From the UHGV virus genome UHGV-1325350: DNA of 12,822 bases. The stretch is one strand, 5' to 3'. The notes under the pieces are model-generated. The model ran no database searches. It was not told the origin of the DNA and saw nothing but the letters and a program-made list of their open reading frames with translations. Each line of letters opens with the position of its first letter. Positions within the stretch are counted from its first letter, which is position 1. Origin of the DNA: a virus. Both the position numbers and the translations under genes were made by a program. Shown piece by piece: positions 4,185 to 12,735 of the stretch.

Positions 4185-4948
4185 TTTGCCTCCTGCGGCG
4201 GTTCTGGTAGCGGCATCCAGTGTGATGGTATCCACGACGCACCAGGTATTACCCACCCATCATTAGCGTCAGGATGCCCCGGGATGTAAGTCGCCCATTT
4301 CATTCGCCAGTCACCTTTCCTGTCAAACTCCCTGGCAACAAGAACGGCTGTTTTGGTATCCGGCATTCGCTCACTACAGCTTATCCAACTATCCGGAATT
4401 ACCGGATAGTTGCGCATTGCGACCTTTAATGCCTCATAGAAGCAACCTTTCAGATTGTTGAACTGACGCCCATTTAGCGGGCCGTGTTCAGTCAGCATGT
4501 TGTGTAATTTCCATGCCGCGTCGTTTACTTCGTTGGATGACAGGGGAGGCAACTTGTAAGTTTGGCTTACAGGTTCGGCACCATGAAGCATGGCAGCACG
4601 GCAGGCGTTCCAGCCAGCTGTTCGCCCAAGCGAGTAAACTTCAGATGGCTCAAGATAATCAATGTCATGCCCGTCCTCATCGTCGTTCTCAGGTAATGCA
4701 GCAGGTACTACTGGTACTGGAGGGGCGGCATAAACAGGAATAACGTCCGCTTGCTCTTTATTGCTTTCATCCGTTAAAGCCCAGAATAATTTCCCGGCCG
4801 GATGTTTGAAAATATAAGCAACTGGATCTGCTTCCAGCGATGCCAGTGCAATTTCATAAGCACGGCGCTCAATATTGTCTCGAACGTCCAAGCTGCCTAT
4901 GCGCTCTTTGATTTCTTTAATCAGTTCTTTGTCGGTGAAAGTGGTCAT
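4181..4948 (-). CDS. DUF551 domain-containing phage protein (255 aa)
   Basis: C-terminal region WISCSERMPD...VLV...W...SHWMPLPEPP matches the remembered DUF551 signature (HWMPLPEPP-type ending). AGGAG Shine-Dalgarno at 7 nt. Pro/Ala-rich linker in the middle. Confidence 0.6.
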   Translation of the reverse strand: MTTFTDKELIKEIKERIGSLDVRDNIERRAYEIALASLEADPVAYIFKHPAGKLFWALTDESNKEQADVIPVYAAPPVPVVPAALPENDDEDGHDIDYLEPSEVYSLGRTAGWNACRAAMLHGAEPVSQTYKLPPLSSNEVNDAAWKLHNMLTEHGPLNGRQFNNLKGCFYEALKVAMRNYPVIPDSWISCSERMPDTKTAVLVAREFDRKGDWRMKWATYIPGHPDANDGWVIPGASWIPSHWMPLPEPPQEAK

Positions 4949-4949
4949 G

Positions 4950-5702
4950 TCACTCTCCTTTGATGCGAATGCCAGCGTCAGACATCATATGCAGATACTC
5001 AACTGCATCCTGAACCCATTGACCGCCAATCCCGTAATAGCGATGCGTAATGATGTCGATAGTTACTAACGGGTCTTGTTCGATTAACTTCCGCAGAAAC
5101 TCTTCCAGGTCACCAGTGCAGTGCTTGATGACAGGAGTTTTCCCAGGATGGCGAACAACAAGAAACTGATTTCCGACTTCACGGACTTCGTTGCTTTTCA
5201 GTTCTGCAATGCGCTTCTCTGAGGCTTCCAGCTTCTCTCGCATATCGTCAACGTACTCGACCAGAGAACCGCCAGCAGGAATTTCGCACTCCTCGACCAG
5301 TTGGAAGTAGATATCAGCTGCGGCCCGTGTGTTGCTATGCCTAGCGTCGCCCATCTCACCTTCACGAAGAGCATCGCGTTCGGCGGTAAGATTGGCTATT
5401 TTGCTGTCTTTGCCTTCCAGCTCAACGCGCAGCCTCCCAACCGTAAGCGCAATATCCTCGTTCTCCTGGTCGCGGCGTTTGATGTATTGCAGGTTTCTTT
5501 CCCGTTCATCCAGCAGCGTCAGCACGGTTTCTGGTCCGGTCAGAAATTTGAAGGCGTTGAGCGCATCAATATCCACACCATAATCTTTAAGTTCCTGTTC
5601 ACTTAACAAATCATCATCAGCTGGCAACATTAACAGGCGTTCCATTGCTGGAATTGCACGTTCCGCCGCCTCACGCAGTGCCTGGTAATTAATTTTGCTC
5701 AC
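4950..5702 (-). CDS. Ead/Ea22-like coiled-coil protein, paralog A (250 aa, GTG start)
   Basis: GTG at 5700-5702 with GGAGG at 7 nt. Central heptad-like segments RLRVELEGKD and KRIAELKSNE shared with the paralogs at 8276-8986 and 9306-10007. A 17-nt stretch (5199-5215) is identical to 8636-8652. Confidence 0.6.
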   Translation of the reverse strand: MSKINYQALREAAERAIPAMERLLMLPADDDLLSEQELKDYGVDIDALNAFKFLTGPETVLTLLDERERNLQYIKRRDQENEDIALTVGRLRVELEGKDSKIANLTAERDALREGEMGDARHSNTRAAADIYFQLVEECEIPAGGSLVEYVDDMREKLEASEKRIAELKSNEVREVGNQFLVVRHPGKTPVIKHCTGDLEEFLRKLIEQDPLVTIDIITHRYYGIGGQWVQDAVEYLHMMSDAGIRIKGE

Positions 5703-6001: not shown

Positions 6002-6997
6002 TCAGTTATTGAACGTGATCACTCCGCGCTCAATGGCGAAGTCGAAAAGCTGGTTAGCGGCTACGTAAAGGCGGATGCCATGTGCTTTTTCCCATGCCCG
6101 GACATCGTTTTCTGCGCTTCTGGCGCAGTCATCGCAAAGAGGAACAGCCCAGCGGTCGTGTTCGTTTAACGAGCGGGCGCGGTACATGAATGGGTGGTTA
6201 ACTTTGCCACCGCATCCGATGCACGGACGAGAAACCACAAACCGGAGATAAGCCGGGCTTTTACCGAGGACCGCTTTTGGTCGGCGCATATAAAGCAGGC
6301 CGGAATCCTCATCTACAGACAGGTTGACGATCTGCTCTGCGGTTATGTCCACCAGCTCGCGGGTACTGTGCTCCCAGGTGATATCTGATTCTTTCAGCGT
6401 ACCGGTAGGGATTTCAGTTTTTGGCTGACAAAATGCAATGCGACCGGCTTCATCTGGCAGCTCATCTTTCAGATTCCGGCGAATGGCCCAAAAAGTGAGT
6501 TCAACCATGCTCAGATCGCGTTCTGGCGGTAGTTTTAACTCGCTCGCAGCCCAGTTCATAACCCAGTTGGCACGATTCAGGGATAACTGGTCGTCCAGCT
6601 TGCTGTACCCCTTCATCATGTATTCCGCATCATGCTTCCAGCACAGGCGAACGGCAGAGCCGTTATAGAAATGAGTGGTTAGCTGGTGGCTGCAATCGCG
6701 CTTATCGTGCGCCTGGCAATCGTGGATATTGGAACTTACCCAATGAACAAGCGAATCTTCACCGCCCAACGCGTTAAATACGCGCTCGCTTTGAAAAAAC
6801 GGTTTCAGAGACTGGTTGGCAACCAGCGAATAATTCAGATCCACTACGCCATCTGGCGTGTTTTCAGCCTGTTCACGCGGAAGTGGGGAGATAATGAAAC
6901 GGCGACCTACGCCAATGTAGTTACTGGTGGGCTTGTCTACCGGAAAGACAGCCACACCAGCTCCGTTTACGAAATGAGGTGTGATTATTGCACTCAT
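6002..6997 (-). CDS. DUF968-like phage protein with C-terminal Cys/His cluster (possible His-Me finger/HNH-like nuclease), 331 aa
   Basis: C-terminus PCIGCGG-x3-H...NEHD...VPLCDDC resembles the C-x2-C...H...H...LPLC pattern in the Ref-like protein at 11208-11786. A second Cys/His-rich patch lies near residues 90-130. Weak Shine-Dalgarno. Preceded by an operator-like palindrome. Confidence 0.55.
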   Translation of the reverse strand: MSAIITPHFVNGAGVAVFPVDKPTSNYIGVGRRFIISPLPREQAENTPDGVVDLNYSLVANQSLKPFFQSERVFNALGGEDSLVHWVSSNIHDCQAHDKRDCSHQLTTHFYNGSAVRLCWKHDAEYMMKGYSKLDDQLSLNRANWVMNWAASELKLPPERDLSMVELTFWAIRRNLKDELPDEAGRIAFCQPKTEIPTGTLKESDITWEHSTRELVDITAEQIVNLSVDEDSGLLYMRRPKAVLGKSPAYLRFVVSRPCIGCGGKVNHPFMYRARSLNEHDRWAVPLCDDCARSAENDVRAWEKAHGIRLYVAANQLFDFAIERGVITFNN

Positions 6998-7038
6998 AAT
7001 GTATACCGACTCTGTTTTGTTCCGAGCGGTAAAATAAT

Positions 7039-7069
7039 ATGTTAGAAAACTAAAATCAATGTTCTAACA
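7039..7069. promoter_or_regulatory. Operator-like palindrome TGTTAGAA-N14-TTCTAACA containing the recurring 11-mer ATGTTAGAAAA; possible internal promoter
   Basis: Perfect 8-bp inverted arms at 7040-7047 and 7062-7069 in the 97-bp gap between the phosphatase and DUF968 genes. On the minus strand TTGATT (plus 7054-7059) sits between the arms as a -35 candidate. The same 11-mer recurs at 11129-11139 and 11787-11797. Confidence 0.5.
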
Positions 7070-7094
7070 CATTATGAGTGCGTAAATGATTTGA

Positions 7095-11115: not shown

Positions 11116-11143
11116 ATATTAATGTTTTATGTTAGAAAATCAA
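11116..11143 (-). promoter_or_regulatory. Predicted sigma70 promoter of the leftward operon (-35 TTGATT, 16-bp spacer, -10 TAATAT on minus strand)
   Basis: Minus-strand sequence TTGATT-TTCTAACATAAAACAT-TAATAT. The operator half-site TTCTAACAT lies in the spacer. About 25 nt upstream of the GGAGGA Shine-Dalgarno of the first ORF. Confidence 0.55.
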
Positions 11144-11159
11144 TTTTGAATATCTAACA
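11130..11159. promoter_or_regulatory. Operator-like palindrome TGTTAGA-N16-TCTAACA in the divergent control region
   Basis: Inverted 7-bp arms at 11130-11136 and 11153-11159. Contains the 11-mer ATGTTAGAAAA (11129-11139) also found at 7039-7049 and, in opposite orientation, at 11787-11797. Lies between the leftward operon and the rightward Ref-like gene. Confidence 0.55.
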
Positions 11160-11207: not shown

Positions 11208-11786
11208 ATGCAGAGACAGAGTTATTGGGAGAAACAGAGACAAAAAGCCATGCAAAAACTGGCTGATCCGGAATGGCGGGAAGAGCAAAGGGCAAAACGT
11301 CTTCAGCAGGCTCAACGCCAGCAGCAACGCGCAAGGGAAAAAGCCGCATCGCCTGAATATCGTCAAAAGAAACTTGAAAAAGTGAGGCAAAATGAACAGC
11401 GCAGAAGAGAGAGGGCGGCGTCAGCCCTCCCCAAAAAAACGCGCCCGTCACGCGGATTAAAAGGGAGATCACTCACAGCAGAAGAGCGCCGGATACAGGA
11501 CGCTATAGGCAAACTCCCCTGTATTGCCTGCCATCTTCACGGGAAGCATAGCCCTGTCGTATCTCTCCACCACATATTTGGCAGAACGGCTAAAGATGCC
11601 CATAAATACGTTCTCCCTTTGTGTAAATGGCACCACCAGCACGCAGCGCCAGCAGAGATCCGCGAACAATATCCCTGGTTGGTTCCTGTTCATGCTGATG
11701 GAAAAATAGGCGGGAAAGCAGATTTTATACGGCACAATGCCGAAGAGATGACGCTCTATCAGACGGTGCAAGAAATGGTGAATTAA
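11208..11786 (+). CDS. ref: Ref-like recombination enhancement function protein: HNH-type nuclease with basic low-complexity N-terminal half (phage P1 Ref-like), 192 aa
   Basis: N-terminal about 95 residues are K/R/Q/E-rich and look disordered. C-terminal half carries a His-Me finger/HNH-like motif (CIACHLHGKH...SLHHIFGR...LPLCKWHHQH). AAGAGG Shine-Dalgarno 8 nt upstream of the ATG. Architecture matches what is known for P1 Ref. Confidence 0.6.
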   Translation: MQRQSYWEKQRQKAMQKLADPEWREEQRAKRLQQAQRQQQRAREKAASPEYRQKKLEKVRQNEQRRRERAASALPKKTRPSRGLKGRSLTAEERRIQDAIGKLPCIACHLHGKHSPVVSLHHIFGRTAKDAHKYVLPLCKWHHQHAAPAEIREQYPWLVPVHADGKIGGKADFIRHNAEEMTLYQTVQEMVN

Positions 11787-11805
11787 TTTTCTAACATTTT
11801 ATGTT
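11787..11805. promoter_or_regulatory. Third copy of the operator 11-mer (TTTTCTAACAT) with small palindrome AACAT-TTT-ATGTT, immediately after the ref stop
   Basis: Exact 11-mer at 11787-11797 in forward orientation. A possible rightward promoter follows (TTGAGT 11804-11809, 17 bp, TACATT 11827-11832). Confidence 0.4.
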
Positions 11806-11910
11806 GAGTTTGAAATTTACTGATTGTACATTTTGATTAGATTGGTTCACCGCTCGACGCAACGAGACAAATCCTCAAGGATTTCGTATGATTGCCAATG
11901 TCATAGTTAT

Positions 11911-11977
11911 GGCAGCGCAATACAGGTGGCTAAAAGCCCCCGTTGACTCACGGTGTTCCAACCTGTATTGCGCCGCC
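11911..11977. repeat. Long inverted repeat (13-bp perfect arms GCGCAATACAGGT / ACCTGTATTGCGC, extendable to about 19 bp with 2 mismatches, 33-bp spacer)
   Basis: Arms at 11915-11927 and 11961-11973. No U-run follows, so it is not a typical intrinsic terminator. Lies in a 330-bp region without a confident gene. Confidence 0.6.
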
Positions 11978-12117
11978 ACCAGACCGTGGAACAGTCTGTG
12001 ACGGCTTCGAAAGCAAGGAGTCACTATGAACAATTACAAACTTTTCCCATCACTCACCGTCTACTCACGCAATAACCTGCGTTCTTTGCTCCCATCAAAA
12101 CTGGAGGGAGTATCAAA

Positions 12118-12285
12118 ATGACCGTTCGCTACCTGAATTATCAAATCCAGAACATCACTGGCGGTTGCTATGACTGGTTTGTCACTCTCGGAAAAGAAGT
12201 GATTACAGGGAAACTGGATGAAGTGAAAGCTAAGGCGTTGGCTTATGCCTGTAAACAATCCATGAAAATGAAAAGAAAAAAATAA
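12118..12285 (+). CDS. Hypothetical small protein, 55 aa, with basic C-terminal tail (not in ORF track)
   Basis: ATG at 12118-12120 preceded by GGAGGGAG at about 8 nt. My translation: MTVRYLNYQIQNITGGCYDWFVTLGKEVITGKLDEVKAKALAYACKQSMKMKRKK. TAA stop at 12283-12285, followed by a hairpin. Confidence 0.5.
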   Translation: MTVRYLNYQIQNITGGCYDWFVTLGKEVITGKLDEVKAKALAYACKQSMKMKRKK

Positions 12286-12298
12286 CAATGGGAACAAT

Positions 12299-12327
12299 CC
12301 GCCCCACTCCGCTATAAGGTGGGGCGG
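12299..12327. terminator. GC-rich hairpin between convergent genes (candidate bidirectional terminator)
   Basis: CCGCCCCAC (12299-12307) / GTGGGGCGG (12319-12327) with 11-nt loop. U-runs are imperfect on both sides, so terminator function is uncertain. Confidence 0.45.
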
Positions 12328-12342
12328 CATAATTAATACTGG

Positions 12343-12735
12343 TTAAAACTCACCTGCACGCTGTTTTTCAAGCACAGATTTAACATTTGGCGCTTTACCC
12401 TCAAAAGAATGGAAAGTGCCACATTTTTCTGTCTTCACCTCGCGCAGAGCTTCGCCATCGGCATTCTGCCATTGATGGGATAATGTCATATCACCGCGAG
12501 AAGGAACATCAAGCGAGTACAGCGTATAAGTGCCTCCCATCTCTGCATATTCCTGGAACACATAACTCATTACGTCAGATTCAGTTTTACGATGTGCGTT
12601 ATCGACCTTATTCCCGTTCAGAAATATAGCGTTTGGATAGATTTTTATATCAAACTGACCGCATTTCACTTGCAGATTCCCAGCGTCTGCCAGCAAAGGA
12701 AAAGCAGCCAATAAAGCAATAGCCAATCTTTTCAA
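12343..12735 (-). CDS. Putative secreted/periplasmic protein with signal peptide (130 aa, TTG start)
   Basis: N-terminus MKRLAIALLAAFPLLADA is a typical Sec signal peptide with an A-D-A cleavage motif. TTG start at 12733-12735 preceded by GGAGG at 5 nt. No family recognised; could be host or prophage cargo. Confidence 0.6.
   Translation of the reverse strand: MKRLAIALLAAFPLLADAGNLQVKCGQFDIKIYPNAIFLNGNKVDNAHRKTESDVMSYVFQEYAEMGGTYTLYSLDVPSRGDMTLSHQWQNADGEALREVKTEKCGTFHSFEGKAPNVKSVLEKQRAGEF

What the first reader, a model, noticed from the sequence alone, without database searches (positions are those of the whole stretch)
11911..11977. Long inverted repeat in a gene-poor stretch downstream of ref
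The 13-bp perfect arms (19 bp with 2 mismatches) separated by 33 bp are stronger than any other secondary structure in the window, and no U-run follows. It sits downstream of the third operator-motif copy and a possible rightward promoter, so it could be part of a structured small RNA. Alternatively it could be a recombinase or integrase binding site marking a module or prophage boundary. A 41-codon ORF (11888-12013) with an AAGGA Shine-Dalgarno overlaps it but is unconvincing.
Basis: seen in the sequence. Interest (0 to 1): 0.5.

Follow-up and report, generated by a model that had tools for sequence, protein, structure and literature searches.

The report
Unannotated C4-type phage antisense RNA gene
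The inverted repeat is the closing stem of a divergent, unannotated copy of the phage P1 "C4" antisense RNA, which most likely shuts off the two small genes just downstream in a D6-like phage-plasmid; this is a known kind of regulator found in a new place.

Summary
The inverted repeat is real: arms 11910-11927 and 11961-11978, 17 of 18 positions paired, the longest in the window. It is not a recombination site, a terminator or a coding region. It is the closing stem of a C4-type antisense RNA on the + strand, predicted mature at about 11911-11981.

- **Match to Rfam C4:** full length but below threshold (39.7 bits, cut-off 45).
- **Reciprocal test:** a model built only from this copy and its orthologues finds P1 c4.
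- **Covariation:** all three helices covary across the family (96% paired, 21 of 25 pairs compensatory).
- **Anatomy:** like P1, it has a UUAU|GG leader and an ACCA 3' tail. A 7-nt junction strand (a') is complementary to 11987-11993. The hairpin-2 loop (b') is complementary to 12018-12023, over the Shine-Dalgarno sequence of a 31-codon ORF. That ORF is coupled by an ATGA overlap to a conserved 55-aa gene of unknown function.
- **Conservation:** the RNA interior and both targets are almost invariant, while flanks are 52-72% identical.
- **Upstream:** a repressor-operator-like motif and two promoter-like sites lie ahead of it.

The host is a D6-like phage-plasmid that also has a canonical c4-icd-antirepressor operon with a different pairing specificity. 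Published D6-like annotation does not list this copy. Verdict: new member of a known kind, of modest interest. Expression and function are untested.

The parts
11782..11798 (+). Operator-like 17-mer ATTAATTTTCTAACATT, a candidate D6-type C1 repressor operator. It overlaps the ref stop codon (11784-11786).
   Evidence: About 20 copies at 4 or fewer mismatches lie at scattered sites in the full plasmid. The ones I placed are upstream of ref and of the canonical c4 operon. The position matches P1's Omat operator, which overlaps the ref stop codon. Binding by C1 is inferred and was not tested.
11804..11832 (+). Distal promoter-like site: TTGAGT, 17 nt, TACATT.
   Evidence: Read from the sequence. 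TTGA.. and TACATT are conserved in D6 and L175 while the spacer varies. It scores 8 of 12, below the scan threshold, so it is inferred.
11864..11892 (+). Proximal promoter-like site: GAGACA, 17 nt, TATGAT. The predicted start is about 10 nt before the RNA.
   Evidence: This is the only sigma-70-like hit in 11700-12400. GAGACA is invariant, and the -10 hexamer is TATGAT, TATTAT or TATCAT in relatives.
11911..11981 (+). Predicted mature C4-type antisense RNA. It has a 5' arm (11911-11927), hairpin 1 (11928-11938), hairpin 2 (11940-11953, with loop UGACUC = b' at 11944-11949), junction UGUUCCA = a' (11954-11960), a 3' arm (11961-11977) and tail ACCA (11978-11981).
   Evidence: Rfam C4 (RF01695) matches full length at 11905-11983 on the + strand: 39.7 bits, E 4e-6. 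The MFE and consensus folds agree. Covariation supports the helices. The leader UUAU|GG and the ACC tail match annotated P1 c4. The ends are inferred by analogy to P1.
11987..11993 (+). a2 target TGGAACA, complementary to the junction a'. It sits in the loop of a small hairpin (11980-11984 / 11994-11998).
   Evidence: It lies 7 nt after the ACC tail, against 4-8 nt in other C4 classes. It is invariant in all variants except the error-prone L007.
12003..12022 (+). Leader hairpin GGCUUC / GGAGUC that sequesters the Shine-Dalgarno sequence of ORF1.
   Evidence: RNAalifold consensus of 5 variants: 6 pairs, one with a one-sided change. Its function is inferred.
12018..12023 (+). b2 target GAGTCA, complementary to the hairpin-2 loop b'. 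It overlaps the Shine-Dalgarno sequence AAGGAG (12015-12020) and ends 2 nt before the ORF1 ATG.
   Evidence: The a2-b2 gap is 24 nt, against 22-24 nt in P1, P7 and D6 C4 operons. Both targets in the right order occur in 1e-5 of leader shuffles.
12026..12121 (+). ORF1, 31 codons. It is probably a deletion remnant of the icd-like gene found at this position in relatives, and its stop overlaps the ORF2 start (ATGA).
   Evidence: Alignment with L006, where a 61-aa NCBIfam phage_ICD_like gene follows the same RNA. The frame and the ATGA overlap are kept in D6 despite indels. No family hit.
12118..12285 (+). ORF2, 55 aa, a conserved protein of unknown function (phrog_7786). It is the likely regulated cargo.
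   Evidence: PHROG hit at 2e-37. Homologues are 80-98% identical, with mostly synonymous differences. Distant homologues of 43-58% identity exist in other ~90-kb phage-plasmid contigs. No Pfam, NCBIfam or PDB match, and the AF2 model has low confidence.
12299..12327 (.). GC-rich hairpin CCGCCCCAC / GTGGGGCGG between ORF2 and the convergent - strand gene 12343-12735. It is probably the end of the transcription unit.
   Evidence: Read from the sequence. The terminator scan reports - strand hits at 12287-12308. Its function is inferred.

Best explanation
The repeat is the 17-bp closing stem of a C4-type antisense RNA gene on the + strand, a diverged paralogue of c4 from the phage P1/P7 immI region, carried by a D6-like phage-plasmid.

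**Inferred sequence of events:**
1. Transcription starts at one or both promoter-like sites downstream of a C1-operator-like motif, and may also read through from ref.
2. The RNA folds into a tRNA-like three-way junction.
3. RNase P cuts after UUAU, leaving G11911 as the 5' end, with ACCA at the 3' side.
4. The released RNA of about 70 nt pairs through its junction strand (a', UGUUCCA) and its hairpin-2 loop (b', UGACUC) with a2 (11987-11993) and b2 (12018-12023) on the same transcript.
5. This pairing occludes the ribosome-binding site of the 31-codon ORF1. As in P1, that is expected to shut off the downstream ORF2 as well, by loss of translational coupling and Rho-dependent polarity.

**Shown here:** homology, structure, covariation, target complementarity, geometry and conservation.

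**Inferred:** transcription, processing, repression, and what ORF2 does.
For: - **Rfam match.** Rfam C4 matches full length on the + strand only (39.7 bits, E 4e-6). Orthologues in D6 and six plasmids score 36.5-42.3 bits.
- **Reciprocal test.** A covariance model built only from the five ref-proximal variants finds P1 c4 (34.3 bits), the D6 canonical C4 (38.7), and the C4 copies upstream of distant ORF2 homologues in L176 (42.1) and L175 (36.7). Sixteen unrelated contigs gave only one weak hit, at E 0.31.
- **Covariation.** 96.4% of cells are paired, 21 of 25 pairs carry compensatory changes, 0 of 500 shuffles reach this, and sliding the partners drops pairing to 32-52%. On a MAFFT alignment not fitted to the structure, the outer stem is 97.4% paired with 11 of 16 pairs compensatory.
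- **Target pairing across classes.** Six specificity classes were compared: P1, P7, the repL-side copy of this plasmid, two isrK-side copies, and this one. Each has its own a' and b' matched by its own a2 and b2 in the same geometry: a2 at 4-8 nt after the RNA, a gap of 22-24 nt, and b2 at the RBS.
- **Chance.** Both of this RNA's targets occur in order in 1e-5 of leader shuffles, and the pair is unique in the 89-kb plasmid.
- **Conservation.** The RNA interior is 33/33 identical and the SD/b2 stretch 94-100% identical to D6 and E. fergusonii, while flanks are 52-72% identical.
- **Strand.** In relatives the stem differences are G-U wobbles that pair only on the + strand, and the + strand fold is more stable in 3 of 5 variants.
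- **Gene context.** In L006, L008 and L175 the same RNA directly precedes a genuine icd-like gene followed by ORF2.
- **Upstream signals.** The operator-like motif and promoter-like sites are conserved.
Against: - The score is below Rfam's gathering threshold (39.7 against 45 bits).
- There are no a1/b1 copies upstream: no RF03163 hit, only degenerate TGGTTCA and GAGACA.
- b'/b2 is 6 bp, against 8 bp in P1, and the hairpin-2 loop is 6 nt against 10-12 nt.
- This window's variant has an A-C mismatch in the stem, and its - strand folds better (-40.1 against -35.7 kcal/mol).
- Within the ref-proximal subfamily there are no double compensatory changes, and a'/b' never vary, so there is no covariation of loops with targets inside the lineage.
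- In the distant relative L176, no a2 complement is found downstream.
- There is no icd or antirepressor in this window, and ORF2 has its own GGAGG Shine-Dalgarno sequence.
- No expression data were available.
Confidence: 0.85

Rival explanations
1. It is a decaying, non-functional duplicate of c4. On this view it was left behind when an icd-antirepressor module was lost, and persists only because the lineage is young.
For: The Rfam score is sub-threshold. The stem has an A-C mismatch in this variant. The icd-like gene is reduced to a 31-codon remnant. No antirepressor follows. All known copies come from one closely related lineage of Escherichia, Salmonella and Shigella plasmids.
Against: The RNA interior and both targets are 94-100% identical while adjacent intergenic DNA is 52-72% identical. 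Stem changes are overwhelmingly pair-preserving. The same RNA-to-ORF2 linkage is kept in much more distant contigs with entirely different stem sequences (L175, L176). The ATGA coupling and the frame of ORF1 survive indels.
Confidence: 0.09
2. It acts at the DNA level, as a palindromic binding site for a recombinase, integrase or other protein, or as a cruciform marking a module or prophage junction.
For: It is a long, near-perfect inverted repeat in an intergenic stretch. The gene order downstream of ORF2 differs between this plasmid and D6.
Against: The synteny break lies after ORF2, at about 12262-12290, and not at the repeat. The 33 nt between the arms are the invariant part, while the arms vary by pair-preserving transitions, which is the opposite of what a protein-binding palindrome would show. 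The element is a plasmid with a Cre/lox-type system, not an integrated prophage.
Confidence: 0.02
3. The functional transcript is on the - strand. It would be a stable stem-loop that ends or protects a leftward RNA, or an antisense RNA to the ORF1 leader.
For: In this window the - strand fold is stronger (-54.4 kcal/mol, z -6.4; -40.1 against -35.7 for the core).
Against: Rfam gives no - strand hit even at E 10. In D6, L004 and L006 the - strand is 4-6 kcal/mol weaker and folds differently, because the wobble pairs become A-C mismatches. No leftward promoter or T-run is associated with it. The leader, ACCA tail, a'/a2 and b'/b2 only make sense on the + strand.
Confidence: 0.03
4. It is part of a protein-coding gene: the 41-codon ORF 11888-12013, or the 52-codon - strand ORF 11875-12033.
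For: The ORFs exist, and AAGGA precedes the ATG at 11888.
Against: The ATG at 11888 is ATT in D6 and ATC in L006. A 1-nt indel in hairpin 1 between variants would shift the frame. Neither ORF is annotated in the RefSeq record p23AR1183B or in the D6 record.
Confidence: 0.01

Closest known systems
c4 antisense RNA of phages P1 and P7 (immI region; Rfam RF01695, clan CL00128)
   Same: - **Fold:** the same three-way junction, with a 16-17-bp closing stem, two hairpins and a 7-nt junction strand.
- **Ends:** the same UUAU|GG 5' context and ACC 3' tail.
- **Pairing:** a' in the junction and b' in the hairpin-2 loop pair with a2 just after the RNA and with b2 at the RBS of the first ORF on the same transcript, with a 22-24-nt gap.
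- **Upstream:** an operator plus tandem promoters.
- **Downstream:** in three relatives an icd-like gene follows.

Sources. The P1 mechanism (translation block of icd, shut-off of ant, P1/P7 heteroimmunity, RNase P processing) is taken from the P1 record's annotation, from PMC12197685, and from the title of Hartmann et al. 1995 as listed in PMC4919922.
   Different: - It scores below the Rfam cut-off.
- The hairpin-2 loop is 6 nt rather than 10-12 nt, and b'/b2 is 6 bp rather than 8 bp.
- Hairpin 1 has an A-rich loop in place of UUCG.
- b2 ends 2 nt from the ATG, against 10 nt in P1.
- There are no a1/b1 copies.
- The leader before the RNA is only about 10 nt from the proximal promoter.
- The genes downstream are a 31-codon remnant and a 55-aa protein of unknown function, not icd and ant.
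- It lies next to ref, under the operator that in P1 controls mat.
Canonical C4 copies of D6-like phage-plasmids: c4-a1b1/C4/icd/Rha next to repL, and isrK/C4/icd/ant downstream of ORF2 in D6
   Same: They are in the same genomes and have the same architecture and target geometry.
   Different: The canonical copies score 72-76 bits and are annotated in pYU39_89 (PMC6799933, S1 Table). The ref-proximal copy is not listed there. The pairing sequences differ (CUGCUAA and UCAUUCGU, or GUCUCAA and CCUUUUGC, against UGUUCCA and UGACUC), so the circuits should not cross-react.
sar RNA of phage P22 (antisense control of the antirepressor)
   Same: It is a small phage RNA that blocks translation initiation of a gene that must stay off in lysogens (PMC12197685).
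   Different: sar is a true cis-antisense transcript from the opposite strand. It has no tRNA-like fold and is not known to be processed by RNase P, and there is no sequence or structure relationship. It is a functional analogy only.
IsrK sRNA / orf45-anrP module of Gifsy-1
   Same: A small RNA precedes a short upstream ORF whose stop overlaps the start (AUGA) of the regulated gene, with control exerted at the RBS of the upstream ORF (PMC4825925). An isrK homologue lies just downstream of ORF2 in D6.
   Different: IsrK activates rather than represses, and it has a different fold and a terminator. No isrK is present in this window.

Membership tests
C4 antisense RNA (Rfam RF01695; P1/P7 c4) | Covariance-model score at or above Rfam's gathering threshold (45 bits) | tested here: not met
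   The score is 39.7 bits (E 4e-6 over 571 nt) for a full-length match to model positions 1-87. Orthologues score 36.5-42.3 bits. The homologous copy upstream of a distant ORF2 homologue (L176) scores 48.1 and passes. The threshold is an annotation cut-off and not a biological property.
C4 antisense RNA (Rfam RF01695; P1/P7 c4) | Three-way junction: long closing stem, two hairpins, single-stranded 3' junction strand | tested here: met
   The MFE, centroid and consensus folds all give this structure on the + strand in all 5 variants. The Rfam alignment covers every element.
C4 antisense RNA (Rfam RF01695; P1/P7 c4) | Helices supported by compensatory changes across members | tested here: met
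   Alignment A9: 96.4% paired, 21 of 25 pairs changed on both sides, 0 of 500 shuffles, slid controls 32-52% (this alignment was fitted to the model). Alignment A2, made with MAFFT, outer stem only: 97.4% paired, 11 of 16 pairs compensatory. Within the ref-proximal lineage alone there are only one-sided changes.
C4 antisense RNA (Rfam RF01695; P1/P7 c4) | Reciprocal similarity to experimentally defined P1 c4 | tested here: met
   Model R1, built only from the ref-proximal copies, finds P1 c4 at its annotated position: 34.3 bits, E 6e-6 over 48.6 kb.
C4 antisense RNA (Rfam RF01695; P1/P7 c4) | a' and b' complementary to a2 and b2 downstream on the same strand, with b2 at the RBS of the first ORF | tested here: met
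   UGUUCCA pairs with TGGAACA (11987-11993) and UGACUC pairs with GAGTCA (12018-12023, over AAGGAG). The geometry matches five other classes. The chance of both in order is 1e-5.
C4 antisense RNA (Rfam RF01695; P1/P7 c4) | Upstream a1/b1 copies of the targets (Rfam RF03163) | tested here: not met
   There is no c4-a1b1 hit at E up to 10. Only degenerate TGGTTCA (5/7) and GAGACA (5/6) lie between the two promoters. The canonical copy in the same plasmid does have a1/b1 (52.2 bits).
C4 antisense RNA (Rfam RF01695; P1/P7 c4) | Context: C1-operator-controlled promoter upstream; icd then antirepressor downstream | tested here: inconclusive
   An operator-like motif and promoter-like sites are present. 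An icd-like gene follows the orthologous RNA in L006, L008 and L175, but in this window only a 31-codon remnant remains. No antirepressor follows in any of them; the 55-aa ORF2 follows instead.
C4 antisense RNA (Rfam RF01695; P1/P7 c4) | Processed from a longer transcript by RNase P to an RNA of about 77 nt | not testable with these tools
   Only the sequence signals can be read: UUAU|GG before the stem, identical to P1, and ACCA after it.
Intrinsic (Rho-independent) terminator | GC-rich hairpin with a short loop, followed by a U-run | tested here: not met
   The terminator scan gives no hit at 11905-11985. The interior is 33 nt, and the stem is followed by CCAGACCG.
tRNA / tmRNA | Cloverleaf with an anticodon, recognised by ARAGORN or the Rfam tRNA model | tested here: not met
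   ARAGORN finds 0 genes in the window, and Rfam finds no tRNA. Only the acceptor-stem-like end resembles a tRNA.
Attachment or recombination site at an element boundary | Homology to relatives ends at the site; the arms are the conserved part | tested here: not met
   Homology to D6 runs from ref through ORF2, to about 12262. The interior is invariant while the arms vary.

The most novel reading that the evidence does not exclude
D6-like phage-plasmids may run up to three mutually orthogonal C4-type riboregulators. The ref-proximal one would form a separate immunity-like circuit. Its pairing code (UGUUCCA / UGACUC) is fixed across the whole lineage, and it would gate a lineage-specific 55-aa protein (phrog_7786) rather than an antirepressor. 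That protein could be a new small antirepressor, toxin or anti-defence factor, released only when the C1 repressor is lost or when a superinfecting relative lacks the matching RNA.
Probability: 0.3. Interest if true: 0.5.

Novelty: new member of a known kind. Interest (0 to 1): 0.3.

Why it matters
C4 is the classic trans-acting antisense immunity RNA of P1-type phages. This finding shows three things.

- A diverged copy escapes Rfam's automatic cut-off. It is not listed in the published pYU39_89 annotation or in the D6 and RefSeq records fetched, although it is present in about 2% of complete E. coli genomes (115 of 5426).
- Some phage-plasmids carry several C4 circuits with different pairing codes.
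- One of these circuits is wired to a small conserved gene of unknown function in place of the antirepressor.

It gives a concrete handle for finding out what that 55-aa protein does: derepress it by mutating a' or b'. It also offers natural orthogonal C4/target pairs for studying the specificity of this class of riboregulator. It does not change how the class is understood.

Tried and rejected
- **Rfam at gathering threshold:** no hit. The match appeared only with the E-value threshold.
- **tRNA/tmRNA scan:** nothing.
- **Search for ORF2 relatives in species-representative genomes:** nothing, either with the single protein or with the exact a'/b' DNA pattern.
- **15-nt pattern from the 3' arm:** mostly chance hits in viral contigs. 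After filtering it added no new variants, and none with a different a'/b'.
- **ORF2 function:** no significant Pfam, NCBIfam or PDB match. The AlphaFold model had pLDDT 68.5 and pTM 0.40, too weak to justify a fold search.
- **BLASTP comparisons:** ORF1 against the icd-like protein, and that protein against P1 Icd, gave no alignment. The icd relationship rests on the NCBIfam profile and the DNA alignment.
- **Papers not held:** the P1 genome paper, the D6 genome paper and Hartmann et al. 1995.
- **Readings rejected:** a recombination site, a terminator, a coding region and a - strand RNA, for the reasons given under the rival explanations.

Full report
**Observation.** The inverted repeat exists as described. 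The repeat finder gives arms 11910-11927 and 11961-11978: 18 nt, 94% complementary, 33 nt apart. It is the longest of only four inverted repeats within 200 nt in the 12.8-kb window. Either strand folds much better than dinucleotide shuffles: z -4.3 on + and -6.4 on -, with 0 of 200 shuffles as good. No T-run follows, and the terminator scan reports nothing there.

**Where the window comes from.** The region is 99.9% identical to about 90-kb E. coli plasmids such as p23AR1183B (NZ_CP195379). It is about 80-82% identical to phage D6, a P1-related phage that lives as a plasmid. Matches occur in 115 of 5426 complete E. coli genomes, almost all on plasmids. The gene to the left (11208-11786) is a Ref-family nuclease.

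**What the repeat is.**
- At Rfam's gathering thresholds the window has no RNA family. With the E-value threshold, 11905-11983 on the + strand is a full-length match to the C4 antisense RNA model RF01695: positions 1-87, 39.7 bits against a cut-off of 45, E 4e-6. Nothing matches on the - strand.
- The orthologous position in D6 and six other plasmids scores 36.5-42.3 bits.
- I built a covariance model from the five distinct ref-proximal variants alone and searched 293 kb with it. It recovered experimentally defined P1 c4 at its annotated coordinates (34.3 bits). It also recovered the D6 canonical C4 (38.7 bits) and two further copies described below. Sixteen unrelated viral contigs gave only one weak hit, at E 0.31.
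- On the resulting structural alignment, 96.4% of cells are standard pairs and 21 of 25 pairs show changes on both sides. No shuffle out of 500 reaches this, and sliding the partners by 1-3 columns drops pairing to 32-52%. That alignment is fitted to the model.
- The outer stem gives the same answer on a plain MAFFT alignment of 12 C4 sequences: 97.4% paired, 11 of 16 pairs compensatory.

**Anatomy compared with P1.** The P1 record annotates, in order: operator Oc4, two promoters, a1, b1, the 77-nt c4 RNA, a2 (7 nt, 3 nt after the RNA), b2 (8 nt, 22 nt further on), and icd starting 10 nt later. P1 a' (CUGUCAA) is the single-stranded junction just before the 3' arm. P1 b' (UCACUAAC) is the loop of hairpin 2. 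The window element has the same layout:

| Feature | Coordinates or sequence |
|---|---|
| Leader | ...UUAU, then G11911 (P1: ...UUAU, then GG) |
| 5' arm | 11911-11927 |
| Hairpin 1 | 11928-11938 |
| Hairpin 2 | 11940-11953, loop UGACUC |
| Junction | UGUUCCA, 11954-11960 |
| 3' arm | 11961-11977 |
| Tail | ACCA |
| a2 | TGGAACA, 11987-11993, exact complement of the junction |
| Gap a2 to b2 | 24 nt |
| b2 | GAGTCA, 12018-12023, exact complement of the loop |
| Shine-Dalgarno | AAGGAG, 12015-12020, overlapped by b2 |
| First ORF | ATG at 12026 |

- Six specificity classes were compared: P1, P7, the repL-side copy of this same plasmid, two isrK-side copies, and this one. Each carries different a'/b' sequences, matched by its own a2/b2 at the same relative positions.
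- In shuffles of the 49-nt leader, both targets appear in order at a frequency of 1e-5. The a2...b2 pair occurs nowhere else in the 89-kb plasmid.

**Selection.** Against D6 and an E. fergusonii plasmid:

| Segment | Identity to the window |
|---|---|
| RNA interior (hairpins plus junction) | 33/33 |
| SD/b2 stretch | 94-100% |
| a2 region | 82-88% |
| Upstream intergenic DNA | 52-72% |
| ORF1 body | 51-67% |

Stem differences among variants are nearly all G-C to G-U or A-U to G-U changes that keep pairing on the + strand only. Accordingly, the + strand fold is the more stable in D6, L004 and L006. The - strand advantage seen in this window comes from its single A-C mismatch.

**Downstream genes.**
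- ORF1 (12026-12121, 31 codons) ends in an ATGA overlap with ORF2 (12118-12285, 55 aa).
- ORF2 is a real gene. It belongs to phrog_7786 (E 2e-37), and its homologues are 80-98% identical with mostly synonymous differences.
- In the E. fergusonii and S. dysenteriae plasmids, the same RNA is followed by a 61-aa gene that passes the NCBIfam phage_ICD_like cut-off, and then by ORF2. The DNA alignment shows that ORF1 shares that gene's start and scattered blocks, so ORF1 is probably a deletion remnant that keeps the coupling.
- A profile search found distant ORF2 homologues (43-58% identity) in other ~90-kb viral contigs.
- In L175, an operator-like motif and a promoter precede a C4-like RNA with a completely different 15-bp stem. 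It has the same a' and two downstream CUGGAAC(A) copies, followed by an icd-like gene and ORF2.
- In L176/L177, a C4 that does pass Rfam's cut-off (48.1 bits) lies 37 nt upstream of ORF2, with a weak a1b1 match before it and isrK plus a second C4 after it. In that copy I found no a2 complement downstream, which is a caveat.
- ORF2 has no Pfam, NCBIfam or PDB relative, and its AlphaFold model has low confidence. Its function is unknown.

**Upstream signals.**
- The 17-mer ATTAATTTTCTAACATT at 11782-11798 overlaps the ref stop codon. Copies at 4 or fewer mismatches recur about 20 times at scattered sites in the plasmid. The ones I placed are upstream of ref, upstream of the canonical c4 operon, and an inverted pair at 7038-7071.
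- This distribution resembles that of P1 C1 operators. In P1 the operator Omat overlaps the ref stop codon in the same way, and mat follows directly. So in the D6 lineage the C4-like module appears to have been inserted between ref and mat, under that operator.
- Two promoter-like sites follow: TTGAGT-17-TACATT (11804-11832) and GAGACA-17-TATGAT (11864-11892, the only scan hit). Both have conserved hexamers and variable spacers.

**Other C4 copies and prior annotation.** The window's plasmid also has a canonical c4-a1b1 / C4 (71.9 bits) / icd / Rha operon next to repL, with a' CUGCUAA and b' UCAUUCGU. D6 has that operon plus an isrK / C4 (76 bits) / icd / ant module just after ORF2. The re-annotation of the D6-like plasmid pYU39_89 lists exactly those two c4 genes and notes the duplication. 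Between ref and the ORF2 homologue it lists nothing (PMC6799933). The RefSeq and D6 records show no feature there either.

**Mechanism.** By analogy with P1, the RNA is released from the operon transcript by RNase P. It pairs with a2/b2, blocks ribosome binding at ORF1, and thereby silences ORF2 through lost coupling and Rho polarity. The circuit is expected to be orthogonal to the other C4 copy. The P1 mechanism comes from the P1 record's annotation, the review PMC12197685, and the title of Hartmann et al. 1995 in the reference list of PMC4919922. Transcription, processing and repression of this copy are inferred and were not shown.

**Rivals.**
- A decaying relic is unlikely, given the conservation pattern and the ancient RNA-to-ORF2 linkage.
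- A recombination or boundary site is contradicted by synteny continuing to about 12262, and by the interior rather than the arms being invariant.
- A - strand RNA and the overlapping small ORFs are contradicted by the comparative data.

**Verdict.** The element is a diverged, unannotated member of the C4 antisense RNA family, attached to an unusual cargo gene. It is a new member of a known kind, of modest interest.

Noticed in passing
window 11782-11798 (+), 11128-11144 (-), 7038-7054 (-) / 7055-7071 (+); whole plasmid NZ_CP195379 (L009, L010): A 17-mer with consensus about ATTArTTTTCTAACAyA recurs about 20 times at scattered sites in the plasmid. The ones I placed are upstream of ref, upstream of the canonical c4 operon, and an abutting inverted pair at 7038-7071. 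It is probably the D6-type C1 repressor operator. P1 operators share the TCTAA core.
   Followed up: partly
window 6990-7002 / 7069-7081: A perfect 13-bp inverted repeat (I4) brackets the paired operator-like motifs in the gap between two - strand genes. It looks like a bivalent operator region.
   Followed up: no
L002 (D6) 5330-5365; L004 3222-3255; weaker at window 11971-11978 / 11998-12005: In isrK-side C4 copies, the last 8 nt of the RNA (3' arm plus tail) are complementary to the spacer between a2 and b2. This covaries between D6 (GCUACCGC / GCGGUAGC) and L004 (CCACCGCC / GGCGGUGG), with shuffle frequencies of 0.0006 and 0.002. It is 7 nt in the D6 ref-proximal copy and not significant in this window. 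It could be a third contact or an alternative pairing in the precursor.
   Followed up: partly
window 12003-12008 / 12017-12022: A conserved 6-bp leader hairpin pairs GGCUUC with GGAGUC. The ORF1 Shine-Dalgarno sequence and most of b2 are therefore already sequestered within the mRNA itself.
   Followed up: no
window about 12262-12340 and rightwards; L002 5090-8400: Synteny with D6 breaks just after ORF2. D6's isrK / C4 / icd / ant / pmgF / simB block is replaced here by two - strand genes of unknown function (12343-12735 belongs to phrog_13864), ahead of mat.
   Followed up: partly
L003 (NZ_CP135715) 4208-4327: This relative carries a truncated icd-like pseudogene after ORF2, with no C4 or isrK detected in front of it. 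It is a remnant of the D6-type second module.
   Followed up: no
L176/L177 1800-2412; L178/L179 1650-2162: Distant ORF2 homologues differ in context. In L176 a C4 passing Rfam's threshold sits 37 nt upstream, with a1/b1-like matches but no a2 downstream. In L178/L179 the homologue abuts an upstream coding region, whose TAA stop directly precedes its ATG, and has no C4 nearby.
   Followed up: partly
L010 6508-6628 (plasmid record 50508-50628): A match to the sRNA family STnc100, exactly at its gathering score, lies among the plasmid's tRNA genes.
   Followed up: no
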